42,712 nt of DNA from Candidatus Fermentibacterota bacterium (GTDB taxonomy: Bacteria > JAFGKV01), in the NCBI GenBank assembly GCA_016928395.1, contig JAFGKV010000276.1, positions 1 through 42,712 of the forward strand, written 5' to 3'. Below the pieces are notes generated by a model. The model saw only the letters and a program-made list of their open reading frames with translations. It was not told where the DNA came from and did not search any database. Position numbers and translations under genes: made by a program. Positions 5,105-21,299 of this stretch are shown piece by piece (the first letter of the stretch is position 1; every line of letters starts with the position of its first letter).

Positions 5105-5248
5105 AGCCCGACCAGTCAGACCGGGCAATGAATGCACCCCGTGCAGTCGCGCGTGTGCATCGGGTGCGAGACATGATCCTCCACGCTGGTGCTCAGCGAC
5201 TGATGACATAGAAGTGAGTTCACCTCCGTGCCGTTCGGGAGGAAGGCC

Positions 5249-8200
5249 ATGGACCGGCTTATTCCGGGGTTCATCACAGAACGTTACCAGAGAGGCGAAG
5301 CGCAAGGTGGCTTCGAGGGTTCCGGGCTGTTTGTCGACATTGCAGGATTCTCCCGACTGACTGACGTCGCCTTTACGCTGGGGGAGGTTGGAGCCGAGCT
5401 CATCGGCCGGGAAATTCCGCGACTTTTCGAGACTCCCGTGCGACTGGTGATCGAGAACGGGGGCATCATCACACACTTCGCGGGAGATGCGTTTCTCGCG
5501 CTCTTCCCGGACGATGGCGGCGGAATCGCCCGGCGTATCGGCCTGGCAATCATAGCCCACTTCGACCGGCACGGCCGGAGTGAGACCCCGCACGGGACCT
5601 TCGACTTCGCGGTGAAGTGTGGAGTGGATGTGGGCAGGGTAGCGTGGGGTATCGTGCAAAGCACACGCCATGCCACGTGGTACTTCCAGGGCGGGCCGGT
5701 GGCAGGAGCCACGGCATTGGAGCGACTCGCCGGCCGGGGGGAGATGATTTGCTCCGACGTGGCGCGGCGTGGGGAGGTGGTCGGGGAAGGCATTCATCCA
5801 ATGGCGCCCCCGAACGATGTCGAGACGCTGTCGGCATTCTTCGACGAGGCGATCCTGGAGCGGGGAACGCTCCGTGAGATCCGGAGGGTCGTCGCGGCAT
5901 TTCTGTCGTTTGTGCGACTGGACGACGAAGGAACCCCTATGTCCATCGAAGATCATCACACCTTGGCCGCACTATTCAAGGCGGTAGACGAGCATCTTCC
6001 CTCCGGCGGCAGGGCCTTCGGCCGGCTGCTGATTGATGACAAGGGACTCAATGTGTTGGCCTATTTCGGGGCCCCCACGGCTTTGGAACACCCGGAGGAA
6101 TCGGCACTGCGTTTCCTGTTCGAGCTCCGGGGGCGGCTGAGTGAAGCCCGGCCCGATGTTCGCCTGCGGGCTGGAGTGGATCGTGGGCTAGTGTATGCCG
6201 GGCTGACCGGTGGGACCCTCCGGCATGAGAGGGCTTTCCTGGGGGATTGCGTCAACGTCTCATCACGGATCATGACCGGCGCTCCGTGGGGCGCGATCCA
6301 CGCCTCGACGCGGGTGGTCGAAGCGGTAGGGGAGGGCTGGGCGTTCACCGAACTGCCTGCGGTGGTCTTCAAAGGCAAGAGTGTTCCTGAGCCCGTGTTT
6401 CAGTTGGAGGGCCCGAGAGAAGGGCCAGGGATTCACACCTACCTGCGGCCGATGATTGGGCGAGAGCGTGAGCTTGCCTGCCTCCACCGGCTGTTGGCCC
6501 CGGCGCTGCGAGGAGAGTTCGCAGGGATGGCGTGTGTATACGGCGAAGCCGGGATGGGGAAGACGCGGCTGGTGGCGGAGTTTCGCAGACAGGTGGAGGA
6601 ATCGGGGAGTCACATGGCGTGGGTGGAGCTGCCGTGTGGAGAGGATGATTTGGGGTTGCAGCCGGTTCGGGCGTGGCTGCACGAGTTTTACGGGGTGACG
6701 CCGTTTACGTCGAATCAGGACAAGCGTACGCACATTGCTGCGAGATGTGCAGCCTTGTCAGCAACGCCGGGGGTATCCGAGGAGACCAGCAGGGAACTGA
6801 AGCGCGTGGAGTCGTTCGTGGCAGCTCTGATAGAATGTCACTGGGAGGGTTCGCTGTTTGAGAAGGTCGAGGATCCCAAGCTTCGGTACGACAATCAACT
6901 GTGGGGGCTCCGGCAGATGATCGTTGCACTGAGTGCCAGTGGTCCTGTGGTGGTGCATGTGGAGGATGCGCACTGGTTGGAGTCCGCGACTGCTGAATGG
7001 CTGGGCATCATGACCCGTGCCACCCAGAACCTGCCGCTGTTCATACTCCTGACTTCCCGCTCCGCAGAGGACGGCACCAAGCCTCAACTCGCAGCGGGAA
7101 TGCAGGCACCAGTGATTGAACTGGACCTCGATCGATTGGACGAAAGGCTCGTGCGGTGTATGGTGCGGATGCTATTGGGTGGCTCCACGGACGATCCGCT
7201 GGTGGCCCTCCTGTTGGAACGCGCGGAGGGAAATCCCTTCTTCGTCGAGCAACTGGTGCTGCATCTGTACGAGAGTGAGTATTTGACCCGGTCCGAGATG
7301 GACGGCCGCTGGGGCCTCTCTAGTCCGGCGGTGGCGGATGAACCCGGCCGTCTACCCGGGACTCTGGAAGCGGTGCTCCTGGCGCGATTCGATCGCCTTG
7401 AGGCCTCACTACGGGAAGGCTTGAAGCACGCAGCGACTCTGGGACCGCGGTTCCTGCATCGCGTGCTGGAGGAGTTGCTGGGGCGGAGCCGGGAGTTTGG
7501 CGCGGAGCCCCTGATGGTCATTCCCCAGGCTGAAGAGCATGCGATGATCCTGCCTGAACGCACGCATCCGTTCGATGCCGAACAGGCCTACCTGTTCAGG
7601 CACGCATTGATGCAGAGAGCGGCATATCATCTGCAGCCGCCTGGTATGCGTGAGTATCTGCATGGTCTGGCCGCAGACGTGGTGGAGGAGTTGTTCCCCA
7701 AACGCGAGGATATGCTGGTAATTCTCGCGGAGCACCTGGGCAAGGCGGGAAGGCGTGAGCGGGAGGCTGAGGTACTGGAGCACGCCGCCGCGGTTGCCAA
7801 GCGGGGCTACCGAAACGCTGAGGCCATTGCGCTGTATGAGCGACTTCGGGACCGATTGAAGCGGCTCGGCGCGGAGGAGTCCGAGCGCATGGTCCGTGCG
7901 CTCTACAGCCTGGCGGCGGTGAAATGGTTGGTGGGTGACTGGAGGCAGGCCCATGACGTGACACAGATAGGCTGCGCAATCGCCGAACGACTTGGCACTG
8001 ATGACCTGGTAGTCGATGGGTGGGTTCTCGCTGCAGAGCAACTGAGAAACCTCGGGGAACCCACGTGCGCTCAGGAGAGAGCGCACGCGGCGCGGGACCG
8101 TGCGACCCGGTGCGACTACCTGTTGGGCATTGCGCGTGCATTGGGGGTTCTCGGCCGGCTGTACTGGAACCAGGGTGAATATCAGCGCGCTCTCGAAGCG

Positions 8201-9268
8201 ATTCAAGGACAACTCTGCCGTGCGGACGAAGCCGGAAACGAGGCTGAGGCGCTCAATGCCAAGGGCACTCTGGGCATCGTGCTGTGGGCTCAGGGTCATC
8301 ACCCGCAGGCGCTGGAGTGTTTCAGGGATTGGCAGAAGAGGGCGGAGAGGGTAGGGGATCGACGCGGTGTCGGCAGAGCCATCGGCAATCAGGGGTTGGT
8401 GTACTGGGACTTTGGTGACTATGACCGGGCCCTGGAGTGCTACAAGGAGCAGACTCGGCAGGGAACAGAGGTGGGGGATTGGGAGAGCGTGACGCTCGGC
8501 AGTGGCAACAGCGGCAATGTGTACTGCGAGCAGGGAGAGTATGCCCGGGCGCTGGAGTGCTTCCAGGAGTGGCAGTGCCGGGCAGAAATCTTGGGAGACC
8601 GGCTGGGGGTGAGCAATGCCATCGGCAATCAAGGGAACGTATGCCTGCACGTGGGAAGGTATCGGCAGGCGCTTCAGCACAGTGAGGAATTTGTCGATCG
8701 CGCCAGGGCGCTCGGTGACCGGTTTGGCATTGCATTCGGTCTTGGGCAACAAGGGTATGCCCACCTCTTTCTCGGGGATACGACCCAAGCCTTGAAGTGC
8801 TTCCGGAAGGCGTTGACCGAAACGGAGGAATCGGGTGACAGCAAGAACGCCGCACCCGCGCTTCTCGGCATGAGCATGGCTCACCAGCATCGGAACGAAT
8901 ACGAGCAGGCGCTCGCCTGCAGTCAGAAGAGCCTCGCTATTGCCAGTGAGGAAGGCTCGCCGAACCGCATTTCAGGGGCCCGCGCACAAGCCGCAGCAGT
9001 GCTCCTTGCTATGGGGAGAACGGCCGAAGCCGCGGCCGAGGCTGGCCAGGCCCTTGAGATTGCGCGGGGCCTTCATACGCGCCCCGCCTTGATTGAGCCG
9101 CTAATGGTATTCGCTGAGGTGCAGGCGCGAGAAGGTGACATCCTCCAGGCAACCAACTCGTTGGCCGAGGCCCGTCAGATCGCTGAGGATCTCGGCCTCG
9201 CGCATCGAGTAGCCGAGATCGAACGGGTTTCTGCGCGACTCATGCCGCCTGAGGCGCGGCCCAGCTGA
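5249..9268 (+). CDS. Tandem class III adenylate/guanylate cyclase - STAND ATPase - TPR protein
   Basis: FVDIAGFS..FAGDA and DDKG..FGAP..GDCVNVSSRIM cyclase halves, Walker A GEAGMGKT, Walker B VHVEDAHW, GNPFF, ~40-aa TPR repeats at the C-terminus. Confidence 0.9.
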   Translation: MDRLIPGFITERYQRGEAQGGFEGSGLFVDIAGFSRLTDVAFTLGEVGAELIGREIPRLFETPVRLVIENGGIITHFAGDAFLALFPDDGGGIARRIGLAIIAHFDRHGRSETPHGTFDFAVKCGVDVGRVAWGIVQSTRHATWYFQGGPVAGATALERLAGRGEMICSDVARRGEVVGEGIHPMAPPNDVETLSAFFDEAILERGTLREIRRVVAAFLSFVRLDDEGTPMSIEDHHTLAALFKAVDEHLPSGGRAFGRLLIDDKGLNVLAYFGAPTALEHPEESALRFLFELRGRLSEARPDVRLRAGVDRGLVYAGLTGGTLRHERAFLGDCVNVSSRIMTGAPWGAIHASTRVVEAVGEGWAFTELPAVVFKGKSVPEPVFQLEGPREGPGIHTYLRPMIGRERELACLHRLLAPALRGEFAGMACVYGEAGMGKTRLVAEFRRQVEESGSHMAWVELPCGEDDLGLQPVRAWLHEFYGVTPFTSNQDKRTHIAARCAALSATPGVSEETSRELKRVESFVAALIECHWEGSLFEKVEDPKLRYDNQLWGLRQMIVALSASGPVVVHVEDAHWLESATAEWLGIMTRATQNLPLFILLTSRSAEDGTKPQLAAGMQAPVIELDLDRLDERLVRCMVRMLLGGSTDDPLVALLLERAEGNPFFVEQLVLHLYESEYLTRSEMDGRWGLSSPAVADEPGRLPGTLEAVLLARFDRLEASLREGLKHAATLGPRFLHRVLEELLGRSREFGAEPLMVIPQAEEHAMILPERTHPFDAEQAYLFRHALMQRAAYHLQPPGMREYLHGLAADVVEELFPKREDMLVILAEHLGKAGRREREAEVLEHAAAVAKRGYRNAEAIALYERLRDRLKRLGAEESERMVRALYSLAAVKWLVGDWRQAHDVTQIGCAIAERLGTDDLVVDGWVLAAEQLRNLGEPTCAQERAHAARDRATRCDYLLGIARALGVLGRLYWNQGEYQRALEAIQGQLCRADEAGNEAEALNAKGTLGIVLWAQGHHPQALECFRDWQKRAERVGDRRGVGRAIGNQGLVYWDFGDYDRALECYKEQTRQGTEVGDWESVTLGSGNSGNVYCEQGEYARALECFQEWQCRAEILGDRLGVSNAIGNQGNVCLHVGRYRQALQHSEEFVDRARALGDRFGIAFGLGQQGYAHLFLGDTTQALKCFRKALTETEESGDSKNAAPALLGMSMAHQHRNEYEQALACSQKSLAIASEEGSPNRISGARAQAAAVLLAMGRTAEAAAEAGQALEIARGLHTRPALIEPLMVFAEVQAREGDILQATNSLAEARQIAEDLGLAHRVAEIERVSARLMPPEARPS

Positions 9269-10374: not shown

Positions 10375-10868
10375 CGGCGGCGCTCGTTTCGTGGCTCCCT
10401 CGCCGTGAACAGCATCTCTGTCCCCGACAAAGTAGAACATCGAACCCAATAGTCGAGATGCAACCACCTACCCATTGGCCACTGCCGGCATCCCACTCTC
10501 CCGCCTGAAAGAGGATGCGGGCCTACTACCTACTGCCGACTGGCTCGATCCTTCACCATACGACTCTTGCGTTCGCTCCACCTCGCCAGGTATCCGGCGC
10601 CTTCCCACCTTCCCCAGCCGCTACAAGATTTGAGATTCGCCCCCACGGGGCTGCTCTCCATTCCAAGTTCAGAATCGTCCAGGTCACGATCAAGGACTGG
10701 CATTGGATGTGGTTCAATCGAGCCGGGAGCCTTGTGTGGCCGGCTCTTTCGTCCAGTACGTTGACATCTCACCTACGTCCGTAGACTGGCTAGACTGGCC
10801 TGACACTATGCACTCTCGCAGGGGCGAGTCGTGGGCCTATCGAGGCGTGCGGCCCGTTGGCGTAGTTC

Positions 10869-11285
10869 CTATGCTCCTGCCATGATCCTCGAAAGCCGCT
10901 GTTGGGCTTTCTGGACGTCAGGATCATTCATGTAGGGCATCATCTTCCTGAAGACGCTCCCCATCTTCTTGCCCATCTCTTCGGCTCTCTGCTGCGACTC
11001 CTTCAGTTCGTCGGGCACGTTCTCCTTGTCCTTCAACTCAGGATACTTCTCGGAGAGTTCCCTCACTCGGGGCCACAGCTTCTCCATTCTGTCCGCATAG
11101 CTGTTCACGGCCTTGGCCACGTCCTTCGCGTCTTCGGCATCTTCAAGGTCGTCGACATAGGTTTCGGTGATTTCCACGAACTCCGCGTTCACCTTCTTCG
11201 CGTCCGCATACTTGCCGGAACAGCCACTCAACCATAGCGCAGGAATCACGAGACAGAGAACCAGCGGGAACTCGATCTTTCTCAT
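10869..11285 (-). CDS. Hypothetical helical lipoprotein
   Basis: Signal peptide with LSGC lipobox; GGAGG SD before MRKIEF. Confidence 0.75.
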   Translation of the reverse strand: MRKIEFPLVLCLVIPALWLSGCSGKYADAKKVNAEFVEITETYVDDLEDAEDAKDVAKAVNSYADRMEKLWPRVRELSEKYPELKDKENVPDELKESQQRAEEMGKKMGSVFRKMMPYMNDPDVQKAQQRLSRIMAGA

Positions 11286-11448
11286 TCTCAGCCTCCTCAT
11301 GCTCAGGGAGTTCCGATCGGCGGTGTCCCCGGACCGTGCGAAGACGTGTCGCGATACGCGAACCTACTGCACCGGTGGTCGGTTCCGCAACAGCGTTGAT
11401 GTCGCGGAGGTCTGCGGCGGGGGAGGGGCGATAGTCCGGCCAGTCTAC

Positions 11449-11526
11449 TCAGTCGTTCGCTGTCAGTGAGGCCTCTGGATGCGAGAGCACCCAGAGGCCT
11501 TACTGACAACTGAAAACTGACAACTG
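11449..11526. terminator. Long hairpin with heptamer-repeat arms downstream of the rSAM operon
   Basis: TGTCAGTGAGGCCTCTGG (11461-11478) / CCAGAGGCCTTACTGACA (11491-11508), 17/18 matched, closed by TGC-GAGA-GCA. Flanked by ACTGACA/ACTGAAA heptamers. Confidence 0.55.
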
Positions 11527-11572
11527 CGAGCGTTGCGCATGGGAAGGAAAGGAAGGAAACCTGAGAACTTGC

Positions 11573-12559
11573 CTACTCAGATGTGCCGCTGCAGATGGCC
11601 CGTCCGCCGTGAAGTGCCGTGCCGAGGATGCGCTCGCAGGCCTTGTCGTCGGTGTGGTAGCCCGACTTCTTCGTAGTCTTCTGCCGGAGCACCAGCACCT
11701 CGGCATCCTTGTTCGCCTGGTACTCACAGATCACCTTGGGCTGCAGGGGCATCTTCTTGTGCCACGCGGCGAGCCCAAAGCCGGGTGTGGCTGCCAGCAC
11801 GCAGTAGAAGTAGGGGTAGCTCGTCCCCTGGACGATATTGAGATTGATTTGCGCCTGGAGCCCGTAGAGTCCTTCCGGAGACGAGGGAAAGGCAACGGAG
11901 AATCGGGCGTCGACGGGCACCGACCCCTCACCCTTGCGGGCCAGAAGCAGTGCCGGCTGGAACACCTCGCCCTCCTTGCCGATCTTTGCGAATGCCTGGT
12001 GCATCTTGAGTATGATGTTCACCCGGATGGCCAGGTTAGGATGCTTGAGCATGAACCGCATACCCGTGAGCCAGAACAGCCACAGTATTACGAGGCCGTC
12101 CAATGCCACGATGAGCGCGACGCGCACGTCATCGCCCAGCACTCCAATACCCACGGACACCGCAATCACCAGAGCAGTGAGGACCACCAGCAAGGTGCAC
12201 CCCAAAGGGTTTGATGCATCGAAGGCATCGCGGTCCCACTCCTTGGCCCGCTTCCTGAGGGTCTCCAGCTCCCGTATGCGCTCGATGGACACGGGTTTCC
12301 AGGCGGGATCGATGTCGAAGGTTTTGAACCGGATCCGGCTGTCATATCCCCGCACGGCCACGAAAAGTGCGGCCGCAATGAGGAAAGGAAGGCCGGCCAG
12401 CGCATTCAGCGTGGCGATCTGCAGCGCACACGCAGCAACGGACAGAAGCAGCCCGATGAGCATCCGGCGGCTGTAGGGCAGGTCTTTGGCGACATAGAAC
12501 CGGATGCTGTCGTGCTCCTTCCCGGCAAGCGGGCTCTGTGATGCAGGGGTGGCGCTCAT
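11573..12559 (-). CDS. Hypothetical membrane protein (4 TM plus soluble C-terminal domain), third gene of the rSAM operon
   Basis: Two TM hairpins; ATGA overlap with the upstream rSAM stop. Confidence 0.8.
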   Translation of the reverse strand: MSATPASQSPLAGKEHDSIRFYVAKDLPYSRRMLIGLLLSVAACALQIATLNALAGLPFLIAAALFVAVRGYDSRIRFKTFDIDPAWKPVSIERIRELETLRKRAKEWDRDAFDASNPLGCTLLVVLTALVIAVSVGIGVLGDDVRVALIVALDGLVILWLFWLTGMRFMLKHPNLAIRVNIILKMHQAFAKIGKEGEVFQPALLLARKGEGSVPVDARFSVAFPSSPEGLYGLQAQINLNIVQGTSYPYFYCVLAATPGFGLAAWHKKMPLQPKVICEYQANKDAEVLVLRQKTTKKSGYHTDDKACERILGTALHGGRAICSGTSE

Positions 12560-13878
12560 GACACGTTCCTCCCTACGGCCGCGATGGCCGGTTCGATCTC
12601 GTCATAGTCGTGGGCATGGAAGTACAGGGGGCATGCCCCCTGGCACAGGGCAAACTCAGGGCACGGCCTGCACAAGGGATGTGCTTCGCGTTTCTCCCTG
12701 ATGTGCCGGGTTCGGGGGCCGAACCAAATGCGGCTGAACCCATCCTCGAGAATGCTGCCCAAAGGTTCGGGCCAACTGGAACACGGCAAGACCTGCCCGG
12801 AGGGATCGATGGAGAGCAGCCCTTCGCAGGCTGCGCAACTCTTATTGCCCAGCCCCTGCTGGACAGGGTTGAACAGGCAGACGGGAATCGGGGAGTACCA
12901 CATGAAGTGAATGCTCTCCGACCGCGCCGCTGCCACGATCTCTGGCAGGAGGGCTGCGGCCTCGCGATAGGTGGTTGCTAGCTCGGGGTCGATCCCCCTT
13001 CCGGCGGGGATCACCAGGTTTGCCGAGCATCGCGTCGCCCCAAGGCTGCGGGCAAAGGCAGGAAGCAGGGTCGCGGTGTCCAGGTTCATGGCGCACAGTG
13101 TCGTATGCGGATGGACATGCACGCCGGCCTCCTGGAGGGCATGAAGCCCGGCCACCGATGCGGCGTGAGCCCCGCCTTGCCCCACGATCCGGTCATGGAT
13201 CGCCGGTTCCGGCGACTCGATGCTCACCTGGGCCGATGCAAGCCCGCGTTTCTTCAACGTTGCAGCCACGGCTCTATCGATGAGGGTTCCATTGGTGATG
13301 AGGTTGACTCGCATGTCAAGGGAGCGGGCATAGGCCACCAGGTCAGGGAGATCCGGCCGAAGCATGGGTTCTCCGCCGGTGAATGAGACGCTGGGAACCT
13401 CGGCATCCTGCCGGATGATGCGGAGGACATCCTTGACGGTCTTTGTATCCATCTCGGCTTTTGGGGCCGGTTCGCTCACGTGACGGCATGCCGCATAGCA
13501 GAATTGGCATCGGAGATTGCATCGGAAGGTCAGGGAAATCTCCGAGAGGATGGGCAACTCAATGTAACCCAGTGCAAAGGGTGACCGCCGAATGGCCGGC
13601 GACCAGTGTTCGTCGGACAACTCATCGCTCAAGACCCGGGACAGGTCAGTGAAAAACACCGCCAGGTCGCGAGAGACATTCCCGTCACCGTCGTGACGGA
13701 TGATGTCGGCGATACTCCCGCCGGCGAGGAGATGGTGAAGGGTGCGGGCACCCGTTCTGTTCAGCCTGAACGCCTGATTGGGCATGCGGATGAGCACATT
13801 GTCAGTCAGGCGAACGTGGACATAGGGCCGGATAGAATCTATGAATCCGTCGACCCACTCCAGGGCCGCAGTCTCCAT
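12556..13878 (-). CDS. Radical SAM/SPASM peptide-maturase-like protein with N-terminal PqqD/RRE-like domain
   Basis: CNLRCQFC, TGGEP, ITNGT. SPASM: CAAC..SIDPSGQVLPC..CRPC..CQGACP. N-terminal LNRTGARTLHHLLAG resembles the RRE wHTH. ATG overlaps the upstream stop (TGATG). Confidence 0.9.
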   Translation of the reverse strand: METAALEWVDGFIDSIRPYVHVRLTDNVLIRMPNQAFRLNRTGARTLHHLLAGGSIADIIRHDGDGNVSRDLAVFFTDLSRVLSDELSDEHWSPAIRRSPFALGYIELPILSEISLTFRCNLRCQFCYAACRHVSEPAPKAEMDTKTVKDVLRIIRQDAEVPSVSFTGGEPMLRPDLPDLVAYARSLDMRVNLITNGTLIDRAVAATLKKRGLASAQVSIESPEPAIHDRIVGQGGAHAASVAGLHALQEAGVHVHPHTTLCAMNLDTATLLPAFARSLGATRCSANLVIPAGRGIDPELATTYREAAALLPEIVAAARSESIHFMWYSPIPVCLFNPVQQGLGNKSCAACEGLLSIDPSGQVLPCSSWPEPLGSILEDGFSRIWFGPRTRHIREKREAHPLCRPCPEFALCQGACPLYFHAHDYDEIEPAIAAVGRNVS

Positions 13879-15560
13879 CAATGGCCTCCACCGCTTACGC
13901 AGGCGGAGTGACACGCCGAATGGCAGGCGGAGTGGCACGCGGAGTGACAGGCGGAGTGGCAGGCCGAATGGCAGGCGTCATGGCAGGCGGCATGGCATGC
14001 CTGGATACCGCCCAGATCCCGGGCTACCTGCGCGAAGGAGATGGCATCCGGATTCACAGGAAGAGATGCCTCGAACTCATAGTCGTGCCGGGCAGGGTCG
14101 AAACGATCCCCCTGATGTGCCGATGCGTGATACCAGTACCACCAACTCCGTTCGGGATGACTGTCGTACACCGGGCCGTCATCGACCATGGTCTGTTCCT
14201 GGCTCGTGGGCCGGCCTGCGTCGCGCATGGTACGGCCAATCTTGTCGCCATAGAAACGCTTGGTGGCCTCGATGTCGCAATCCCACGCCTTTTCCTGCAC
14301 GGTGCGCACCATCTTCTGCAGGAGCTCCTCCAGTTCGGCGGTGCTGAACTGCCCATCGTCCTTGGCGGCCTGAAGCAACGTGTATTCGTGGGGGCCAAGG
14401 CTGCTGAGTGATTCCGGGGCGGGGCGGGCGACCTCGACGATCAGCGGATCGCGACTGATGACGGTGATGAAGCCCCGGGCCGCCAGGTGCGAGAGCATGG
14501 TGGAGAGGATCTGCTTGTAGGGTACGCCGAGAAACAGCGCCGCCTCGACGGGGTCGAGGGTGTCGGCCACCTTCCCAGGCTTGCGGAACGACGCAAGCTC
14601 GATCACGGGAGGTTCCCAGTCTTCCCGTACCCATCGGACGTCGTCCAGTTGCTCATGCGCCTTGCCAAGAGACCGGTGCTTGCCCCTCACTACGAAGGCG
14701 CCAAACCCAAGTAGTGCCACCATGGCAACCGCAAGAACCTGCCTGGCGCGGCGGGGGTCAGACACCGCGGCAGTGGAGGATGAGCTCTCGTCAGTCTCCA
14801 GAGCGGTTCGAGGCACAGATGCTTCCCGATCCCGAAGCCCCGGGAAGACCTCCGCGTGCACATACTGCTGGATCCTGAAGTCATAGCGGGAAGAAGGCCG
14901 ATTCTTGTGCAGCAGCACCTGGATCCGTTGCTCGTCTTGGACGGCGACCACCCGGTAGTCAATGAGATACTCCTTGTTCATCCATGACTCGGTCGCAAAT
15001 CCCCGGTCAAGCAACGCGCGCTCTACGGCGGCGCGGGAACCGTCTGCATCGGCGTAGGGGATAGGGTAGGTCACGCGTACGGTGTAGTGATCCATGGATT
15101 CGTCCCACTGGGTGGGCGACCAATGAAGCACCACAAGGTCGTGGCCATCATCCGTGGTGGTGGGCGCGAGGTAGCCCGCGATGGCCATGTCGGCAGCGAA
15201 GCGGAATCGGTAGGTGACCTCGCCTGAGGAGACGCCCTGGTCTCCCGCAAGGATGATATCCCACTGGCCGGATCTATAGGGTGTGATGTCAAGGCCATAT
15301 GTTCGCCCCTGGCTGTCAATGGCCGATGCGTGCTCGGTGTCGAATACCGGTTGCAGGAGACCCACGCCGCCGAAGTAGAATCCATGGAACTCGCCGGAAC
15401 GAACCTCGTAGCGCACCACATATTCGAGGACAGCCTGACCATCGGGGAAGAGGGTTACGTCGGTCTCCACGAAGCGCAATGATCCGGTGCCCGCCGAGGC
15501 GGGACCGGTCAGCCAACAGACGACGGCAAGGGTGAGAGCGAGCCGGTGTCGATGGGTCAT
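13878..15560 (-). CDS. DUF2207-like membrane protein with C-terminal (ACHx)n Cys/His repeat tail
   Basis: Sec signal peptide, beta-rich N-domain (DVTLFPDGQAVLEY; LHWSPTQWDESMDHYTVRVTYP), single TM (VLAVAMVALLGFGAFVV), C-terminus ACHAACHD(ACHS)6ACVSGGGH. AGGAG SD. Confidence 0.85.
   Translation of the reverse strand: MTHRHRLALTLAVVCWLTGPASAGTGSLRFVETDVTLFPDGQAVLEYVVRYEVRSGEFHGFYFGGVGLLQPVFDTEHASAIDSQGRTYGLDITPYRSGQWDIILAGDQGVSSGEVTYRFRFAADMAIAGYLAPTTTDDGHDLVVLHWSPTQWDESMDHYTVRVTYPIPYADADGSRAAVERALLDRGFATESWMNKEYLIDYRVVAVQDEQRIQVLLHKNRPSSRYDFRIQQYVHAEVFPGLRDREASVPRTALETDESSSSTAAVSDPRRARQVLAVAMVALLGFGAFVVRGKHRSLGKAHEQLDDVRWVREDWEPPVIELASFRKPGKVADTLDPVEAALFLGVPYKQILSTMLSHLAARGFITVISRDPLIVEVARPAPESLSSLGPHEYTLLQAAKDDGQFSTAELEELLQKMVRTVQEKAWDCDIEATKRFYGDKIGRTMRDAGRPTSQEQTMVDDGPVYDSHPERSWWYWYHASAHQGDRFDPARHDYEFEASLPVNPDAISFAQVARDLGGIQACHAACHDACHSACHSACHSACHSACHSACHSACVSGGGH
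13893..14000 (-). repeat. Nine 12-bp coding repeats encoding A-C-(H/V)-x
   Basis: 108 nt = 9 x 12. Synonymous codon variation between units (TGC/TGT, TCC/TCG, CAC/CAT, GCC/GCG/GCA). Confidence 0.95.
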
Positions 15561-15913
15561 GGTGTTACTCCTAGTCGTGATGAGATCCTCGCCGATATGA
15601 GTAGTGGCGCGGGTGCCGGTGCGCGCGGGTCATCCACACGTCAGGGAGCCTGCGCTTCTGATCACGTTGAGACCGTATGTAGTGAACACCGCGAGGGATT
15701 CGTCCGCACCATCGGCATCACAGGAAACTTATCGGTCGCGGGAGATTCCTTCCAGTGTGCGATCTTCTTCCTTGCTTTTGGAGGGATCGACGGCCGCGAC
15801 TGCCTCGAAAGTGCTATCGTCGCGGGACTTTGACGTGGCCAGTCTGCAACATCCCTGTTCGAGAGTACACGCAAAGCTCGTACTCGTCCACCTACTTGGA
15901 TTCTATGCTCGCC

Positions 15914-15948
15914 GATTACCATTACGACAACGATACCGATACCGATCC
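15914..15948 (+). repeat. Hexamer-like repeat GATTAC/GACAAC/GATACC
   Basis: gattaccattacgacaacgataccgataccgatcc, which reads DYHYDNDTDTD. Confidence 0.5.
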
Positions 15949-16216
15949 CGAGCTAGCCGGCAGGCAACCAGGGGCGGTCGCCCCAACGAGGCAACGGTTC
16001 CTCGCATGGCCCGCCCGCTGCGCCGCATACTCTCACCCTCGAGAAATCTGAGTGCGCCCCGCGCCCTCAGAGGCCATAGTAAACCCTGAACCCCTTCTCG
16101 GATCAGGGGTCACCGGGCCGAGGGCGGGCTGCTGCGGCACTCCCCCTCCACGTCTATCCTCCATGCTCAAGCTATGCACGGGCCGGCTCAGTTCAAGCCA
16201 GAGACCGCACGGTCGT

Positions 16217-17158
16217 CTAGTGACGGAGGACCATCAGCATCGCGGCCGCGCTTGCGGCGACAGCGATGCTGCCGGCTAGCAGCTGGATGAGGCGCGAGTT
16301 ACGATGAGTGAGGGTGTGGAGCCAGCCGAGGGCAAGACCTGCGAGAAGCCCGAACAGATGAGCTGACAGGTCCGTGCGAGGCCCCGTGCCGAGGAAGCTG
16401 AGAAACGCCAGTGCGGCTGCCAGAGGTGCCCATGATCGAAGCCGGGGCGCTGCGGCCGCTCGATGTTCCACGAACCGCCGTGCCGCCAGGATGCCTACTG
16501 CGGCGAACACTGCGGTGGATGCACCGATGGACAGCCTATATGTGTTGTGGGTCACTCCGTTGAGTGTATTGCCGACTGCTCCAGCCGCCAGAATGAGCAG
16601 GGCGCCCACACCGGGGCCGGTGCCGGCCGCAACCCCGGATCCCAGGACGGCAAGGGCAACGGCGTTGCCCGCTAAGTGCTGGACATCTGCATGGATGAAC
16701 AAGGCGGTGACGCATCGGTGGAATTCACCGCGGCGCAGCAGATATCCTGAGATTCCCCCACGACGGATCACCGAGTCGTGACCCTGCCACAGGGTAATGC
16801 CATGGGCCACTATGATCAGCAGAGCGAAGACGATGCCCGCGTGGGACCATTGTGCGGGGCGGTTCGCTGCCCGGAAGGCGGATTCGCGGGAATGATCTCG
16901 AATGGCCCGGATGGCCAGATGCGATTCCAGAAACGGCACCTCGATCGTCCACTGGCCATCATCCTTGGATGCCCGCGACGAGATTCCAGAGGCCGCCAAG
17001 AGGGCCGAAATGGTCTCGACAGCCTTTTCCGACGTCTCACGGGCAACGGTGACCATGGCGAGTGCTGCTGGTCTATCCCCGGCAGAGAAAACCGGAGGAG
17101 GGCCACCGTCGATTTCGGGGCGGCGTGGAGGCCGGGGGGAGAGGCCTTCGGGCCTCAC
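16217..17158 (-). CDS. Rhomboid-family intramembrane serine protease
   Basis: TALFIHADVQHLAGN, catalytic SIGASTAVF and AHLFG; multiple TMs. Start uncertain. Confidence 0.88.
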   Translation of the reverse strand: MRPEGLSPRPPRRPEIDGGPPPVFSAGDRPAALAMVTVARETSEKAVETISALLAASGISSRASKDDGQWTIEVPFLESHLAIRAIRDHSRESAFRAANRPAQWSHAGIVFALLIIVAHGITLWQGHDSVIRRGGISGYLLRRGEFHRCVTALFIHADVQHLAGNAVALAVLGSGVAAGTGPGVGALLILAAGAVGNTLNGVTHNTYRLSIGASTAVFAAVGILAARRFVEHRAAAAPRLRSWAPLAAALAFLSFLGTGPRTDLSAHLFGLLAGLALGWLHTLTHRNSRLIQLLAGSIAVAASAAAMLMVLRH

Positions 17159-17161
17159 CTG

Positions 17162-17488
17162 TCAGGAGACCCGTGACCCCGTCGGTACGGCGGTCATTGG
17201 AGCAATCAATACCGGAGTGTTGCTCTGGGGATCCAGGGCTGCCAGGAGCATGCCGCACGACTCGATGCCCCGAATGCGTGCCGGCTGGAGGTTGGCCACC
17301 AGGACGATTTGCTTTCCTGCCAAATCCTCGGCAGGGTACGCCTGGGCGATGCCGGCCACTATGGTTCTCGTGTCCGAGCCGGTGTCCACCACGAGCCGAA
17401 GGAGTCTGTCCGCGCTGGGAATGGGCTCGGCAGACATGACGGTCGCGACCACCAAGTCCAGCTTCTTGAAGTCGTCGAAGGAGATCAC
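17162..17488 (-). CDS. Stand-alone tRNA-binding OB-fold protein (Trbp111 / MetRS C-terminal-like)
   Basis: ISFDDFKKLDLVVA, RTIVAGI, VANLQPARIRGIES.GMLL. GTGA overlap with the rSAM stop. Confidence 0.88.
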   Translation of the reverse strand: MISFDDFKKLDLVVATVMSAEPIPSADRLLRLVVDTGSDTRTIVAGIAQAYPAEDLAGKQIVLVANLQPARIRGIESCGMLLAALDPQSNTPVLIAPMTAVPTGSRVS

Positions 17489-18597
17489 GAGGCCTCCCGT
17501 TGGGGCAGGGGCGCAGCACCCTGGGTTTCACGGGATATGCGGGCACGGCGGACCTCGTCCATCAGCCGGGCGCGATGGCAGGCGGTTTCATATGCCGCCA
17601 GAGGGTCGCCTTTCTCCAAGGCTGCGGTGGCGGGACAACGGAAGCACAGCGGTAGGAGCTCACATTCCCGGCATTCGGGCGCGCTCTTGCGCCGGGCAGC
17701 CCGCAATTCCAGCATCACCGGGGAGTTGGCCCAGATGTCGGCAAACCGCTGAGTACGGAGGTTTCCCGCCGACCATGGATACTGCATGCAGGGGAGCACG
17801 TCGCCGTTCCACGAAATGTCGCAGAAGCTGACACCTGCCCTGCACATGTAGCCATTCAAACGGTCTTCCCGGTTTTCCTGGAGCTGCACATTGTCGAAGG
17901 AGAGAGAACCGGGTCCTAACGTGGGATCGGCAACCAGCTCCTTGAATTGATCATCGGTCAAGGCCATCTCCAACGTGTCAATGCTGCCGTCATTCCGACT
18001 GCTGACTGTCGGGTCAAGGGAGAAGGGAATGCCCAGATCCCGAGCCATGGCGACGATCTGCGGGTACTCGTGGAAGTTGGCCTGCATGAGCAGAGTCTTG
18101 ATGCGGGTCTTGACGCCCGCTTCCTTCAAGAGATGAATAGCGTGGGTAGCGCGGGCGAAGGAGCCCTTGCTTTGGGTAATCCCGTCGTGGGTAGCCGGTT
18201 CGGCGCCGAGAATGCTAATGCTTACCTGCCATACCGCCAGCTCGCGGAGCCGCCGGGCCGTGGCGGGGCCGATAAGCGTGCCATTGGTGTAGATCTCGAT
18301 GTTGAAGGTTTTCTCTCGGGCGTGCAAGACAAGCTCCAGGAAGTCGCTCCGAATGAACGGTTCGCCACCGGAGAACGTAAGGCGCAGAGCGCCGGCATCG
18401 GCAAGTTGGTTCAGCGCGTCCTTTGCATCTTCCGTGGTGAGCTCGTCCGCATGAGACTCACGGTGACCGACCACATAACACATCGAGCAATCCAGATTGC
18501 ATCGCCGGGTGATCTCGAAGATGACATCATGGGGTATTGACCGGGAGGCCACCTCGCGGTTTGCCCTGAACAGCAGAGGGATTCTCGATTCCGACAA
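17485..18597 (-). CDS. Second radical SAM/SPASM protein
   Basis: EITRRCNLDCSMCY, SGGEP, YTNGT. SPASM: CRAG..DISWNGDVLPC..CREC..CFRCP..C. Confidence 0.9.
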   Translation of the reverse strand: MSESRIPLLFRANREVASRSIPHDVIFEITRRCNLDCSMCYVVGHRESHADELTTEDAKDALNQLADAGALRLTFSGGEPFIRSDFLELVLHAREKTFNIEIYTNGTLIGPATARRLRELAVWQVSISILGAEPATHDGITQSKGSFARATHAIHLLKEAGVKTRIKTLLMQANFHEYPQIVAMARDLGIPFSLDPTVSSRNDGSIDTLEMALTDDQFKELVADPTLGPGSLSFDNVQLQENREDRLNGYMCRAGVSFCDISWNGDVLPCMQYPWSAGNLRTQRFADIWANSPVMLELRAARRKSAPECRECELLPLCFRCPATAALEKGDPLAAYETACHRARLMDEVRRARISRETQGAAPLPQREAS

Positions 18598-18617
18598 TCA
18601 AATCTCCAAATGAAGTA

Positions 18618-18902
18618 TCACGTATTATTCGATAGAACGAGAAGGCGAAGCTTGTCAGAGGAGAGATTGGTCACAAACTCTAAAACATCATTCTCGGCCT
18701 GGGTATCTTCAACCTCGAATTCGCCACATATTGATTCGATGATTGAGCGAACCGTGGTGGCTCCATCAGCCAGTTCCCAGATACGTGTACCCACTTCATC
18801 AAGAGAATGAAGCATGCTGTCTTCGGCAGAGATGAGAATTGCTTCGCCGTCAATCACGCGCCATGCGACGTCTTTGTTTCTGGCCACGACTTTATCCAGC
18901 AT
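18618..18902 (-). CDS. Stand-alone PqqD-family (RRE) peptide-binding protein
   Basis: VAWRVIDGEAILI..LDEVGTRIWELADG..TV..I...IC.EFEV....AE.DVLEFV..L. Confidence 0.9.
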   Translation of the reverse strand: MLDKVVARNKDVAWRVIDGEAILISAEDSMLHSLDEVGTRIWELADGATTVRSIIESICGEFEVEDTQAENDVLEFVTNLSSDKLRLLVLSNNT

Positions 18903-18955
18903 CCAGCATTGACCTCCATACTTGTCACCGGGCACTTCCATGAATAATGCCCTGA

Positions 18956-18984
18956 AATGTACCGTCCGCAGACGTTCGGGTCAA
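18956..18984 (-). promoter_or_regulatory. Sigma70-type promoter of the pqqD-rSAM unit
   Basis: TTGACC - 17 nt - TACATT on the minus strand, ~55 nt before the pqqD ATG. Confidence 0.6.
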
Positions 18985-19259
18985 TGGCCCCGTCTGCTCG
19001 GAGTCGTTCCTGCCAGCAGCGCAGAAGCGTTCCGGGGCCACCCTAGCCCGACCGAGTGCACCGGCATCCCGAAATTCCCCACATCGCGGCCTTGCGATGT
19101 CGACCGGCGTGCAGCGTCCGGATTGGAAGGGCACGGGGAACAAGAACAAGGGTTCACGGCGTCTCGGGGATCAGGGACACGGAGATGATCTCGGCTCTCC
19201 GCACAGCACGGGAATCATCGCCTCGAGTGTCGCATGAACGCAGTGTGCCACAAGGGCAG

Positions 19260-21299
19260 TCATCCGCGGCCGGTTTCCTTTCCGGTCGTGGAAGCCATAG
19301 TCTGATCAGTGCCTGGTTCTACGGCTACCCAGTCCAGCCTGACGCCGTGGCGCCACAGCTCATCACTGGGACGCTCATCCAGCGGGCTTGCCCGGAGGGT
19401 CAGCAGTTGGCGGCCGTCAGGACGCATGGTCTCGGCATGTGCCATGAAACTGACAACGCTGTCGGCAGAAGTAAACGTGCCCAGAAGATGACCATTGAGC
19501 CTGGCCATCGCACACGTGCGGCCGAAATCCGCACTCTGGTGGAGGCCGATGCCGATACGCCACTGGCCAGGGATCATGTGGAGTTCGATGACGGGCGAGT
19601 CTCCTGACCACCGCGCATGGCTGCCGTCTGCCGGTGGAGCGGAGAACAAGGAAGGTTCATTCCCGGGACCGAAGTTATAGAAGCTCCTTGAGTACTCGAC
19701 GGGAGGCGGGGACTGACCTATCATGTACCACTTGTGACTGCTGGCATGCAGGATCCTGAGCGGCCGCCACGTGTTGGACACCAGCACGAGTCCGTGAGTG
19801 CCGGCCCATTGATCGGGCACATGATCAAGTTCTTGGACGTGGGCCGAAGGGAGCCAGAACAGCCCGGAGTACAGCGCCGTCCACAGTTCAGGCGAGGCCT
19901 CCGCACGGTGAAGTGCCACCGTCGCGCCCTGGGGGACGGTGGCGTGGAGCCGCCACAGGGCAGGCTCAACCGCCTCCCGACGCCTGCTCATGGCCACCTC
20001 GTGAGCCAGCGCTTCATAGGCAAGGGGGGCGAACAGAGCGAGGCAGAGGACCGCGGCCTGGGTACGGCCCCGGCCTCTGGAGATCATCACGATGGCAGGG
20101 CAGGCCAGGGCGACGATGGCAACACACAACCCCACTGGCACGGTGTTGAGAATCGAGGGGAATGGCATCACGAAAAGCCCCAAACCCGCCGTTGCCAGGG
20201 TTTGGCCGAGCTTGAACCCCCCCTCCGGCCACATGAAGACGGCCAGTGCGGCGCCGGCGGCGGGGAGCATGACATGCATCCGCCGCGGGTATGATCTCAA
20301 GGACAGGAGCCATGGGATTGTGACGGCGATTCCTGTGTCAACATACCGGCCGATGACCCGGTAGATTTGGGCGTTTGGTCCTGCTGATCCATACTGCTGG
20401 TAGGCGATGGTCAAGAGAGCCTGGCCGCCAACGACCACTCCAAGGAAACGTCTGATAGGCTTCTGTTCAGGCGGCCCCCCGGCAAGTAGCAGCCATACGA
20501 AGCCGGCCGACCCCACGATGACCATTGCCAAGGTCGTTCCCGAGTTCTGGGCGAGTGTTCGCCACCCGTGGGCCGTCAAAAGGGTCTTGGCAGCGACCGA
20601 GGCGGTGGCGAGAGGATGGTAGATCCTGAGCACCGAGGTAGGCAGAACAACGAGAAGAACCCCGGCGATCACCGTCGTGATGAGCGCACACCACCGGAGG
20701 GCACGACCGGCCAGGAAGCCCCGAGGCGCGACTCCTGCGAAGAACGCGAGGGGTGCAACCACGCCGGTTACCCGGCAGAAAGGAGCCGCCAGAGAGCAGA
20801 CCCATCCTGCCAGCAGCCACCATGTCCCTCCACCTGTAGTCACGCGGTACAACGAGATCGCTGCGACCTGCAGGAGGACAATGGAGAGGTTCTCACTCAT
20901 GATTAGGGGCACGTATGCCACTGCCGCAGGAGTCGCCAAGAAGGCCGCGGCCACCAGCGGAGCAGGTACGGCGCTCTTCGTCCACACCGCGATTGCATAT
21001 GCCAGCACGCCTCCCGCGATCCAGAGTGCGATGTTCACGGCTTGATAGCCGGCGTAGGCAATGCGGATGTCTGGGGCGAGACTGGCGGGAGCCAGGATCG
21101 CCGGGTAGAGGGGCGGGTAGTTCATCGCGCCTGGCACATCGGGGAAGACCAGGCCACGGTGTGCCAGGTTCCATGCAGCCCGGGCATACATCGTCTCATC
21201 GGCGAAAAGCCAGGGTGTTCGGTGCAGGATCACTGCGTAGGAGACCAGGCCGCAGGCGACGAGGATGACCAGGAGTAGGAATGCGTGTCGTGCGGTCAT
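19260..21299 (-). CDS. Polytopic membrane glycosyltransferase (GT-C/PMT-like) with C-terminal soluble domain
   Basis: TM1 followed by ADETMY, YPPLYP, IMSENL; many TMs. ATGA overlap with the upstream gene. Confidence 0.65.
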   Translation of the reverse strand: MTARHAFLLLVILVACGLVSYAVILHRTPWLFADETMYARAAWNLAHRGLVFPDVPGAMNYPPLYPAILAPASLAPDIRIAYAGYQAVNIALWIAGGVLAYAIAVWTKSAVPAPLVAAAFLATPAAVAYVPLIMSENLSIVLLQVAAISLYRVTTGGGTWWLLAGWVCSLAAPFCRVTGVVAPLAFFAGVAPRGFLAGRALRWCALITTVIAGVLLVVLPTSVLRIYHPLATASVAAKTLLTAHGWRTLAQNSGTTLAMVIVGSAGFVWLLLAGGPPEQKPIRRFLGVVVGGQALLTIAYQQYGSAGPNAQIYRVIGRYVDTGIAVTIPWLLSLRSYPRRMHVMLPAAGAALAVFMWPEGGFKLGQTLATAGLGLFVMPFPSILNTVPVGLCVAIVALACPAIVMISRGRGRTQAAVLCLALFAPLAYEALAHEVAMSRRREAVEPALWRLHATVPQGATVALHRAEASPELWTALYSGLFWLPSAHVQELDHVPDQWAGTHGLVLVSNTWRPLRILHASSHKWYMIGQSPPPVEYSRSFYNFGPGNEPSLFSAPPADGSHARWSGDSPVIELHMIPGQWRIGIGLHQSADFGRTCAMARLNGHLLGTFTSADSVVSFMAHAETMRPDGRQLLTLRASPLDERPSDELWRHGVRLDWVAVEPGTDQTMASTTGKETGRG

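What the first reader, a model, noticed from the sequence alone, without database searches (positions are those of the whole stretch)
11573..15560. RiPP-like system whose substrate is the Cys/His repeat tail of a membrane protein
Seen: three translationally coupled genes (TGATG overlap at 13876-13880, ATGA overlap at 12556-12559). Gene 1 has a signal peptide, a DUF2207-like exported domain, one TM and a C-terminus ACHA-ACHD-(ACHS)6-ACVS-GGGH. Gene 2 is an RRE-fused radical SAM/SPASM enzyme. Gene 3 is a 4-TM protein. No small precursor ORF is visible. Established: RRE+SPASM enzymes modify Cys-rich peptides, e.g. ranthipeptide/sactipeptide thioethers and QhpD cross-links, and DUF2207 proteins usually end in Gly/Ser-rich tails. 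Inference: the tail lies in the cytoplasm, where the rSAM acts, and is the core peptide. The product would be a poly-crosslinked or metal-binding module tethered to a transmembrane protein, for example for metal/redox sensing or envelope signalling.
Basis: partly seen in the sequence, partly recalled or inferred. Interest (0 to 1): 0.9.

Follow-up and report, generated by a model that had tools for sequence, protein, structure and literature searches.

The report
Radical-SAM cassette for Cys-His-tailed membrane protein
A three-gene module found in hundreds of mostly uncultured bacteria pairs a peptide-modifying radical SAM enzyme with a large membrane protein whose cytoplasmic end is a nearly invariant Ala-Cys-His-x ladder, which points to an untested enzyme-made modification on a whole membrane protein.

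Summary
Three overlapping minus-strand genes encode a DUF2207-like single-pass membrane protein ending in ACHA-ACHD-(ACHS)6-ACVS-GGGH, a radical SAM/SPASM enzyme with a weakly RRE-like N-domain, and a 4-TM protein.

In 80 species-level loci carrying more than 20 phylum-level labels, 72 of the 75 with upstream sequence encode an (A-C-H-x)n-ACVSGG tail directly upstream of the enzyme. For four non-adjacent or cut cases, the tailed protein lies elsewhere in 3 of 4 genomes. Cys is invariant in 624 of 624 units. The third gene follows in 75-78 of 80 loci, and nothing else is conserved nearby.

The best reading is iterative radical SAM modification of the cytoplasmic tail, which stays attached to the protein. 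The chemistry is unknown; thioether, His cyclophane and epimerisation are all open.

The cassette fits no curated family. The CXXX-repeat system is only an analogue (TIGR04117 scores 15.7 bits against a cut-off of 50; TIGR04115 gives no match). Seven paper searches found no description. The complex prediction gave no verdict, and no RNA data were found.

This scan had already noted the same cassette on other DNA several times.

The parts
13878..15560 (-). Gene 1: 560-aa DUF2207/YciQ-like single-pass membrane protein with a Cys/His ladder tail (stop codon included)
   Evidence: ORF. Homologues carrying the same tail.
14874..15470 (-). Gene 1 residues 31-229: exported DUF2207 N-terminal domain
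   Evidence: Pfam PF09972, E 4.1e-7, 30.8 bits against a gathering score of 24.4.
14682..14738 (-). Gene 1 residues 275-293: the single internal transmembrane segment
   Evidence: Kyte-Doolittle 19-mer score of 2.18. It is followed by the conserved KHRS motif.
14289..14588 (-). Gene 1 residues 325-424: folded cytoplasmic domain, related to TIGR04222 / DUF2207_C
   Evidence: TIGR04222 scores 31.6 bits, below its cut-off of 43. AlphaFold2 pLDDT is above 90 for this part. DUF2207_C appears as an Atlas lead at 0.88-0.89.
13881..14000 (-). Gene 1 residues 521-560: ACHA-ACHD-(ACHS)6-ACVS-GGGH, the proposed substrate ladder
   Evidence: Read. The columns are invariant across 68 sequences.
12556..13878 (-). 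Gene 2: 440-aa radical SAM/SPASM enzyme. Its start overlaps the gene 1 stop (TGATG).
13564..13878 (-). Gene 2 residues 1-105: conserved N-domain, RRE/PqqD-like by weak hits only
   Evidence: Pfam PqqD E 0.21. hhalign against the window's own PqqD gives E 0.0036 and probability 9%. TfuB1 E 0.15. The TigE alignment starts inside that enzyme's RRE.
13102..13539 (-). Gene 2 residues 114-259: radical SAM core with invariant C120, C124 and C127
   Evidence: Pfam PF04055, E 9.6e-25. Invariant columns.
12658..12837 (-). Gene 2 residues 348-407: SPASM domain. The Cys motif continues to C416.
   Evidence: Pfam PF13186, E 5.1e-9. Invariant C348, C351, C366, C403, C406, C412 and C416.
11573..12559 (-). 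Gene 3: 328-aa protein with four TM helices as two hairpins and a cytoplasmic alpha/beta domain. Its ATG overlaps the gene 2 stop (ATGA).
   Evidence: No Pfam or NCBIfam family. Its family has 617 representative clusters.

Best explanation
This is a self-contained three-gene protein-maturation cassette.

Gene 1 is exported by a signal peptide. It sits in the membrane with its DUF2207-type domain outside and its folded DUF2207_C/TIGR04222-like domain inside. An aromatic/His-rich linker and the ladder C-(H-x-A-C)n-VSGGxH also lie in the cytoplasm.

The co-translated radical SAM/SPASM enzyme docks on the segment just before the ladder through its N-terminal RRE-like domain. It then works along the ladder unit by unit, as known RS-SPASM enzymes do on repeated motifs, installing one radical-derived modification per unit (8-10 units). 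The modified tail stays attached to the protein.

Gene 3 has all its soluble mass in the cytoplasm, including a domain with a weak YbjN / type III chaperone-like fold. It is proposed to hold or present the tail at the membrane, or to be the partner of the matured tail.

Shown: gene order, co-occurrence, tail invariance and domain content.

Inferred: that the tail is the substrate (about 0.7), the topology, and the role of gene 3.

The chemistry is a guess:
- Cys-centred thioether cross-links are most likely, at about 0.35 of that 0.7;
- a His-x-Ala cyclophane or a regular epimerisation are the main alternatives;
- a His-lined, metal-binding rigid rod is the plausible product.
For: Adjacency:
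- 72 of 80 loci have an (AC[HV]x)n tail ORF ending just before the rSAM on the same strand.
- Of the 8 without, 5 have the rSAM at a contig end.
- For L029, L045, L072 and L073, a whole-genome search found a tailed gene 1 elsewhere in 3 of 4 genomes.

Tail constraint, from 624 units in 72 loci:
- Cys in 624 of 624.
- Ala in 601 at position 1; Val or Phe occur only in the first unit.
- His in 552 and Val in 72 at position 3; Val occurs only in the last unit, in all 72 loci.
- 8-10 units per protein, with the end VSGG[SA][HR] in most.

Gene 3 follows the enzyme in 75 of 80 loci by tblastn and in 78 of 80 by ORF clustering. No other gene is shared by more than 6 loci, once antisense shadow ORFs of the cassette genes are set aside. 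None of 6 window neighbours hits any of the 80 loci.

Enzyme type:
- Radical_SAM plus SPASM.
- The nearest solved relatives are peptide maturases with the RRE-RS-SPASM layout: SkfB at E 1e-23 and TigE (8vpo) at E 4.5e-18, aligned from inside its RRE to its SPASM domain.
- TigE and TvgB modify repeated short motifs, TIGSVS and TVGG (PMC10878394, passages read).

The N-domain is as conserved as the core, with invariant R23, D26, P33 and F75 across 40 sequences.

Translational coupling was read.

The gene 3 model is confident (pLDDT 91.8). Its soluble parts all lie on one side, flanked by K/R-rich segments (reading).
Against: No direct evidence exists of any mass change.

RRE identity is not significant in any test: E 0.21, E 0.15, and hhalign probability 9%.

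The top NCBIfam scores of the enzyme are to cofactor enzymes, NirJ2 at 124.6 bits and AhbD at 123.2 bits. It reaches the cut-off of none of the 25 best families listed, out of 86 matched. The family therefore does not indicate the chemistry.

The positive-inside signal at the TM is mild: K+R is higher after the TM in 38 of 63 homologues and lower in 15.

AlphaFold2 models the ladder only at pLDDT 52-59.

In one Aminicenantes subclade the rSAM-gene 3 pair is unlinked from gene 1. In one genome (L029) no gene 1 was found with this query.
Confidence: 0.7

Rival explanations
1. The tail is an unmodified metal-binding or Fe-S-binding Cys/His motif, like the His/Cys-rich tails of metallochaperones (recalled). 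The radical SAM enzyme acts on something else, such as a lipid, a cofactor or gene 3. Genes 1 and 3 would then serve as membrane scaffold, metal donor or electron donor.
For: No modification has been shown. Alternating Cys-His is a natural metal ligand set (general knowledge). The enzyme's best NCBIfam scores are to the tetrapyrrole enzymes NirJ2 and AhbD. A lipid-modifying rSAM, GDGT-MAS (7tol), is among the solved hits at E 6.7e-15. RRE evidence is sub-significant.
Against: The invariance of Ala as well as Cys and His, and the fixed first and last units, exceed what simple metal chelation usually demands. The full-length alignment to the RRE-RS-SPASM peptide maturase TigE and a strongly conserved N-domain fit peptide recognition. 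Those NCBIfam scores lie far below the cut-offs (125 against 500).
Confidence: 0.15
2. This is a classical RiPP. The ladder is the core peptide, the rest of gene 1 acts as a giant leader, and the modified peptide is cut off and released or exported.
For: The core sits at the C-terminus, as in RiPP precursors. A moderately conserved pre-repeat motif (E..[ILM]P...D, or CYEGCF in other subgroups) looks leader-like. A rhomboid protease gene lies upstream in this window.
Against: No protease or transporter is conserved with the cassette. The rhomboid hits 0 of 80 loci and no further gene cluster is shared. The 520-aa 'leader' is itself conserved in both its exported and cytoplasmic domains, which argues that it has its own function.
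Confidence: 0.1
3. The tail is low-complexity noise or an assembly or annotation artefact, and the gene order is accidental.
For: None found.
Against: The same ladder occurs in 72 independent species-level records with more than 20 phylum labels. Synonymous codon variation within the repeat was seen. The start/stop overlaps were read directly.
Confidence: 0.01

Closest known systems
CXXX-repeat radical SAM target system (NCBIfam TIGR04117 'Cys-Xaa-Xaa-Xaa repeat radical SAM target protein', maturase TIGR04115)
   Same: A Cys every fourth residue in a C-terminal repeat is predicted to be the target of a radical SAM/SPASM maturase. The tail aligns to profile positions 61-97 of TIGR04117. Pfam PF27846 is precomputed on several gene 1 homologues and on short Cys-His-repeat proteins.
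   Different: The target here is the tail of a 560-aa membrane protein, not a peptide of about 98 aa. TIGR04117 scores 12.4-15.7 bits against a cut-off of 50. TIGR04115 (cut-off 350) does not match gene 2 at E<=0.001. Gene 3 matches no NCBIfam model even at E 10. That system is itself only predicted; I found no paper on it.
RS-SPASM enzymes that modify repeated short motifs: TigE/TvgB cyclopropylglycine synthases (PDB 8vpo; PMC10878394)
   Same: RRE-RS-SPASM layout. The profile alignment runs from inside the RRE to the SPASM domain at E 4.5e-18. One enzyme modifies each copy of a tandem motif (passages read).
   Different: The substrate motifs are TVGG and TIGSVS on small peptides. The GYW motif that the paper's abstract calls unique to cyclopropyl synthases is absent from gene 2 (reading of the translation). 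This gives no indication that a Val or Ile cyclopropane is made here.
Sactipeptide and ranthipeptide maturases (SkfB, CteB, PapB, StsB)
   Same: They are the closest solved sequence (SkfB 6efn, E 1e-23; CteB 5wgg, E 1.9e-9). They have Cys-rich substrates and SPASM or twitch auxiliary clusters. That PapB acts on repeated CX3D motifs is recalled, not checked here.
   Different: The family models are far from met: SkfB 69 bits against 300, PapB 64.3 against 340, StsB 80.1 against 625. No obvious acceptor residue exists apart from the invariant Ala or His. The substrate is not a free peptide.
DUF2207 / YciQ-like and TIGR04222 membrane proteins
   Same: Exported DUF2207 N-domain. The cytoplasmic domain resembles DUF2207_C and TIGR04222. 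A low-complexity C-terminal tail is present. One homologue (L049) even appends GGGGSSGGGGASGGW after the ladder.
   Different: It has a single TM after the exported domain, an aromatic/His-rich linker and a Cys/His ladder. It has an obligatory rSAM partner. No paper holds both 'DUF2207' and 'radical SAM'.

Membership tests
Radical SAM superfamily (PF04055) | CX3CX2C cluster motif and the core domain | tested here: met
   Pfam E 9.6e-25, 88.1 bits against 29.5. C120, C124 and C127 are invariant in 19 sequences.
SPASM subfamily (PF13186) | C-terminal Cys-rich domain with CX9-15GX4C ... CX2CX5CX3C | tested here: met
   Pfam E 5.1e-9, 36.7 bits against 21.5. C351-X9-G361-X4-C366 and C403-X2-C406-X5-C412-X3-C416 were read from the invariant columns. 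No Cys follows C416; invariant C262 and C334 lie upstream. The motif wording is recalled.
RiPP recognition element (PqqD-like, PF05402) | N-terminal winged helix-turn-helix detectable by profile | tested here: inconclusive
   PqqD E 0.21. hhalign against the window's PqqD protein gives probability 9% and E 0.0036, in the expected register. Lasso RRE TfuB1 E 0.15. The TigE alignment starts at its residue 43, inside its RRE of 3-85.
CXXX-repeat rSAM system, target (TIGR04117) | Score over the curated cut-off of 50 bits | tested here: not met
   15.7 bits for the last 100 aa, 12.4 bits for the whole protein, and 13.1 bits for homologue P0126.
CXXX-repeat rSAM system, maturase (TIGR04115) | Score over the curated cut-off of 350 bits | tested here: not met
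   The own-genome search lists 5 matches at E<=0.001, none at gene 2. It is not among the 25 best families of gene 2.
DUF2207 (PF09972) N-terminal domain | Score over Pfam's gathering score | tested here: met
   30.8 bits against 24.4, residues 31-229.
TIGR04222 domain-containing membrane protein | Score over the curated cut-off of 43 bits | tested here: not met
   31.6 bits, E 1.2e-7, residues 325-424. It is related but below the cut-off.
Cyclopropylglycine synthases (TvgB/TigE) | Gly-Tyr-Trp motif giving a Tyr ligand to Aux I (abstract of PMC10878394) | tested here: not met
   No GYW is present in the 440-aa translation (reading).
Sactipeptide / ranthipeptide maturase families (SkfB TIGR04403, PapB NF047865, StsB NF045574) | Score over each curated cut-off | tested here: not met
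   69 bits against 300, 64.3 against 340, and 80.1 against 625.
His-Xaa-Ser (Hxs) system | HxsB/HxsC-type rSAM over the cut-off; a period-3 H-x-S repeat | tested here: not met
   HxsC4 scores 73.6 bits against 500. The repeat here has period 4.
YbjN / type III secretion chaperone-like fold (gene 3, residues about 175-328) | Clear structural match of the alpha/beta domain | tested here: inconclusive
   Foldseek: YbjN 6vu7, E 0.05-0.07, probability 0.80-0.87. VIA: 2plg Z 7.3, Spa15 Z 7.1, SpcS Z 6.3, AmyR Z 6.0. The Atlas structure row for YbjN has TM 0.52 by row. All of these are in the range the tools call middling.

The most novel reading that the evidence does not exclude
The cassette builds a new kind of protein-derived cofactor. 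It would be a covalently cross-linked, metal-loaded Cys/His ladder of fixed length (8-10 units) on the cytoplasmic tail of a transmembrane receptor-like protein. The ladder is connected through a Trp/Tyr/His-rich linker and is handled by a dedicated membrane chaperone (gene 3). Anaerobes from more than 20 phyla would use it for transmembrane redox or metal signalling or for electron transfer. It would also be the first radical SAM RiPP-type chemistry shown to act in situ on a full-size integral membrane protein.
Probability: 0.25. Interest if true: 0.9.

Novelty: new variant of a known kind. Interest (0 to 1): 0.8.

Why it matters
RS-SPASM maturases are known for small peptides and a few soluble proteins. 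Here the same enzyme type appears locked to the tail of a large membrane protein.

The tail is conserved almost letter for letter across more than 20 phylum labels. The module occurs in at least 497 species-level genomes. No NCBIfam family reaches its cut-off for the enzyme among the 25 best listed, and none matches the third protein at all.

If the tail is modified, this defines a new post-translational modification and gives the first functional handle on the large, uncharacterised DUF2207 family. It also supplies a compact, highly regular substrate for enzymology: one enzyme and 8-10 identical sites.

It is directly testable by co-expression and mass spectrometry.

Tried and rejected
Complex prediction of gene 2 (alignment A1) with the last 100 aa of gene 1 (A3), plus 3 [4Fe-4S] clusters and SAM. 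The verdict was 'no answer' (0.16 and 0.00 against a mark of 0.32), and controls were not run. This counts neither for nor against binding.

Expression. The run search listed no RNA holder. The two metatranscriptome runs of the same study hold next to none of the words.

Rfam on 10500-19500 gave only a chance mir-344 row at E 0.086. The promoter and terminator scan of 10800-16300 gave nothing above the shuffles.

Foldseek on the gene 1 cytoplasmic model gave only weak GOLPH3/Vps74 rows (E 0.12, TM about 0.3). I did not use them.

Heme c attachment. Consecutive Cys make CX3CH strings. I rejected this by reasoning only: the side is cytoplasmic and there would be 8 residues per site. It was not tested.

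Apparent gene 1-rSAM fusion ORFs (810 and 937 aa in L063 and L065) are upstream extensions of the rSAM frame over gene 1 in another frame. They are not fusions.

The second rSAM/PqqD operon and the rhomboid in this window as parts of the system. PqqD, CsaA-like, rhomboid, MBL, lipoprotein and the 698-aa ORF hit 0 of 80 loci. The second rSAM hits only the cassette rSAM itself.

The profile search with gene 3 found only full-length orthologue-like proteins and no link to a known family.

Paper searches that found nothing relevant:
- 'DUF2207' + 'radical SAM'
- 'ACHSACHS' (one unrelated paper)
- 'CXXX repeat' + 'radical SAM'
- 'Cys-Xaa-Xaa-Xaa' + 'radical SAM'
- TIGR04115/04116/04117/PF27846 (one unrelated paper)
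- SPASM + cysteine-histidine + repeat + membrane protein

Supplementary files of papers were not seen.

Full report
**What is in the window**

Three genes lie head to tail on the minus strand:
- gene 1 at 13878-15560 (560 aa);
- gene 2 at 12556-13878 (440 aa from the ATG);
- gene 3 at 11573-12559 (328 aa).

The stop of gene 1 overlaps the start of gene 2 as TGATG. The stop of gene 2 overlaps the start of gene 3 as ATGA. A GGAG lies before gene 1 and a GGGAGGA before gene 3.

A 655-base gap without an Rfam match separates gene 1 from the operon upstream.

**Gene 1**

- The N-terminus reads as a signal peptide (reading).
- Residues 31-229 match the DUF2207 N-domain above Pfam's gathering score.
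- One hydrophobic segment lies at 275-293.
- A cytoplasmic domain follows. AlphaFold2 models it at pLDDT above 90. It resembles TIGR04222 (31.6 bits, below the cut-off of 43) and DUF2207_C (Atlas lead).
- Next comes a Trp/Tyr/His-rich linker.
- Residues 521-560 read ACHA-ACHD-(ACHS)6-ACVS-GGGH.
- The nine units use different synonymous codons, so the repeat is held by selection on the protein.

**Gene 2**

Gene 2 has the radical SAM core and a SPASM domain. Twelve Cys are invariant, three of them the CX3CX2C motif.

None of the 25 best NCBIfam models listed, out of 86 matched, reaches its cut-off. The best is NirJ2 at 124.6 bits against 500.

The first 105 residues are strongly conserved. They look PqqD/RRE-like only through sub-significant hits that agree in register.

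Against solved structures the profile is nearest to SkfB (E 1e-23) and to 8vpo (E 4.5e-18). It aligns with 8vpo from residue 43 to 427. The paper that reports 8vpo names it TigE. It describes an RRE (3-85), an RS domain and a SPASM domain, and shows that TigE and TvgB modify each copy of a repeated short motif (PMC10878394; abstract and passages read). The GYW motif of that family is absent here.

**Gene 3**

Gene 3 has no Pfam or NCBIfam match even at E 10.

Its AlphaFold2 model is confident (pLDDT 91.8). It shows two helical hairpins, 29-67 and 118-165, and an alpha/beta domain to which the N-terminal and inter-hairpin strands belong. All soluble parts therefore lie on one side. The flanking K/R-rich segments suggest that side is the cytoplasm (reading).

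The alpha/beta domain resembles YbjN-family proteins and type III secretion chaperones in three searches, but only at middling scores.

A conserved loop, RQ.TTK.SGYHT (R292, Q293, T295, G300, Y301 and T303 invariant or nearly so), is a candidate functional site.

A profile search of 1.84 billion representatives found 617 clusters, 306 of them at E<=1e-30. The 150 listed are of similar length, and no link to another family appeared.

**The co-occurrence test**

The rSAM has more than 2,000 database relatives. The best 120 are 54-70% identical over at least 96% of their length.

Scanning one genome per species gave at least 497 species with a relative. The 80 best loci carry more than 20 different phylum-level labels in their titles.

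In 72 of these 80 loci an ORF ending in an (AC[HV]x)n ladder lies directly upstream on the same strand. The other eight split as follows:
- Five have the rSAM at a contig end.
- L029 has another ORF inserted upstream.
- L045 and L073 have unrelated genes upstream.

Whole-genome searches of L029, L045, L072 and L073 found a gene 1 homologue with the same ladder elsewhere in three of the four genomes.

Gene 3 follows the rSAM in 75 of 80 loci by tblastn and in 78 of 80 by ORF clustering.

Nothing else is conserved:
- the next clusters are antisense shadows of the three genes, or are shared by at most 6 loci;
- this window's neighbours hit none of the 80 loci;
- no small upstream ORF is shared by more than 5 related loci.

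**The ladder**

Across 624 units in 72 loci:
- Cys is invariant.
- Ala precedes it in 601 units; the exceptions are all in the first unit.
- His follows it in 552 units, and Val follows it in exactly the last unit of all 72 loci.
- The fourth position is Ser 510, Asp 93, Gly 11, Ala 5, Asn 4 and Gln 1.
- There are 8, 9 or 10 units.
- The end is VSGG[SA][HR] in most loci.

Read in the other register, the ladder is C-(H-x-A-C)n-VSGG. It starts and ends with Cys, and every His has a Cys at -1 and +3.

The segment before the ladder is conserved within subgroups, for example E..IP...DH....., or CYEGCF.H. This is what a recognition sequence would look like.

**Distribution**

- The window's own phylum holds only three genomes in the collection, and all three have gene 3.
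- In the class around the Aminicenantes locus L001, 26 of 201 sampled genomes have it.
- The module is therefore accessory, patchy and usually single-copy.

**Mechanism**

I take the tail to be the substrate of the enzyme, modified in the cytoplasm and retained on the protein (confidence about 0.7).

The chemistry cannot be read from sequence:
- Thioethers from the invariant Cys are my first guess.
- A His-x-Ala cyclophane is also compatible with invariant A, C and H and a free fourth position.
- So is a regular epimerisation.

Rival readings are scored in their own section: an unmodified metal-binding tail with another substrate for the enzyme, and a cleaved, exported RiPP.

**What did not help**

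- The complex prediction gave no verdict.
- No RNA data were found.

**Comparison with what is known**

The nearest curated concept is the CXXX-repeat radical SAM target system, but its models are not met. Pfam PF27846 is flagged on homologues in precomputed columns. It is absent from the local library, so I could not read what it says.

Seven paper searches found no description of this pairing.

**Earlier notes of this scan**

Earlier notes describe the same cassette in other genomes and reach the same reading. I reused from them only the pointer to TIGR04117 and PF27846, and I tested TIGR04117 here.

**Verdict**

This is a real, widespread and uncharacterised maturation cassette. It is a new variant of the RS-SPASM/repeat-target theme. 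Interest 0.8.

Noticed in passing
window 16217-18941 (minus strand), with 19260-21356: A second, separate RiPP-like operon lies directly upstream. It encodes a PqqD-family protein (18618-18941; Pfam E 3.5e-16) and a 370-aa radical SAM/SPASM enzyme (17485-18597; best NCBIfam AhbD at 179 bits against 500). It also encodes a tRNA_bind/CsaA-like protein (17162-17488) and a rhomboid protease (16217-17158). No precursor was identified. None of these accompanies the cassette in the 80 other loci.
   Followed up: partly
P0298 (229 aa) and P0300 (143 aa): These are short proteins with an N-terminal signal-peptide-like start and a C-terminal xCHx repeat ending in GSRGWR. The same kind of Cys-His ladder therefore sits on a different, apparently exported architecture. 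P0298 carries the precomputed PF27846 flag. Their gene neighbourhoods were not examined.
   Followed up: no
L049:4807-4935 (Candidatus Vecturithrix record): In this homologue the ladder ACVSGG is followed by GGSSGGGGASGGW.
   Followed up: no
L029:341-1834: A 497-aa ORF sits where gene 1 would be, immediately upstream of the rSAM. Its C-terminus looks like a group II intron maturase or reverse transcriptase, by recall only (not tested). No gene 1 was found in that genome with this query.
   Followed up: partly
L072, L073, L082, L083 (Aminicenantes records): This is a divergent subclade (rSAM 37-38% identical). The rSAM-gene 3 pair is unlinked from gene 1. Gene 1 lies elsewhere, next to the same unrelated gene in both genomes, and still carries the ACHS ladder, preceded by ACHSACFTHD.
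   Followed up: partly
window 5228-9268 (plus strand): A 1346-aa protein with an adenylate/guanylate cyclase domain, an AAA_16 ATPase and many TPR repeats, of the MalT-like regulator type.
   Followed up: no
window 11573-12559, gene 3 residues 290-303: A nearly invariant loop motif, RQ.TTK.SGYHT, lies between the last strand and the last helix of the cytoplasmic domain. Its role is unknown.
   Followed up: no
window 14100-14250, gene 1 residues about 455-500: The linker before the ladder is rich in Trp, Tyr and His (WWYWYH in the window; WYYWYH in the consensus). It is variable in length among homologues and remains unexplained.
   Followed up: no
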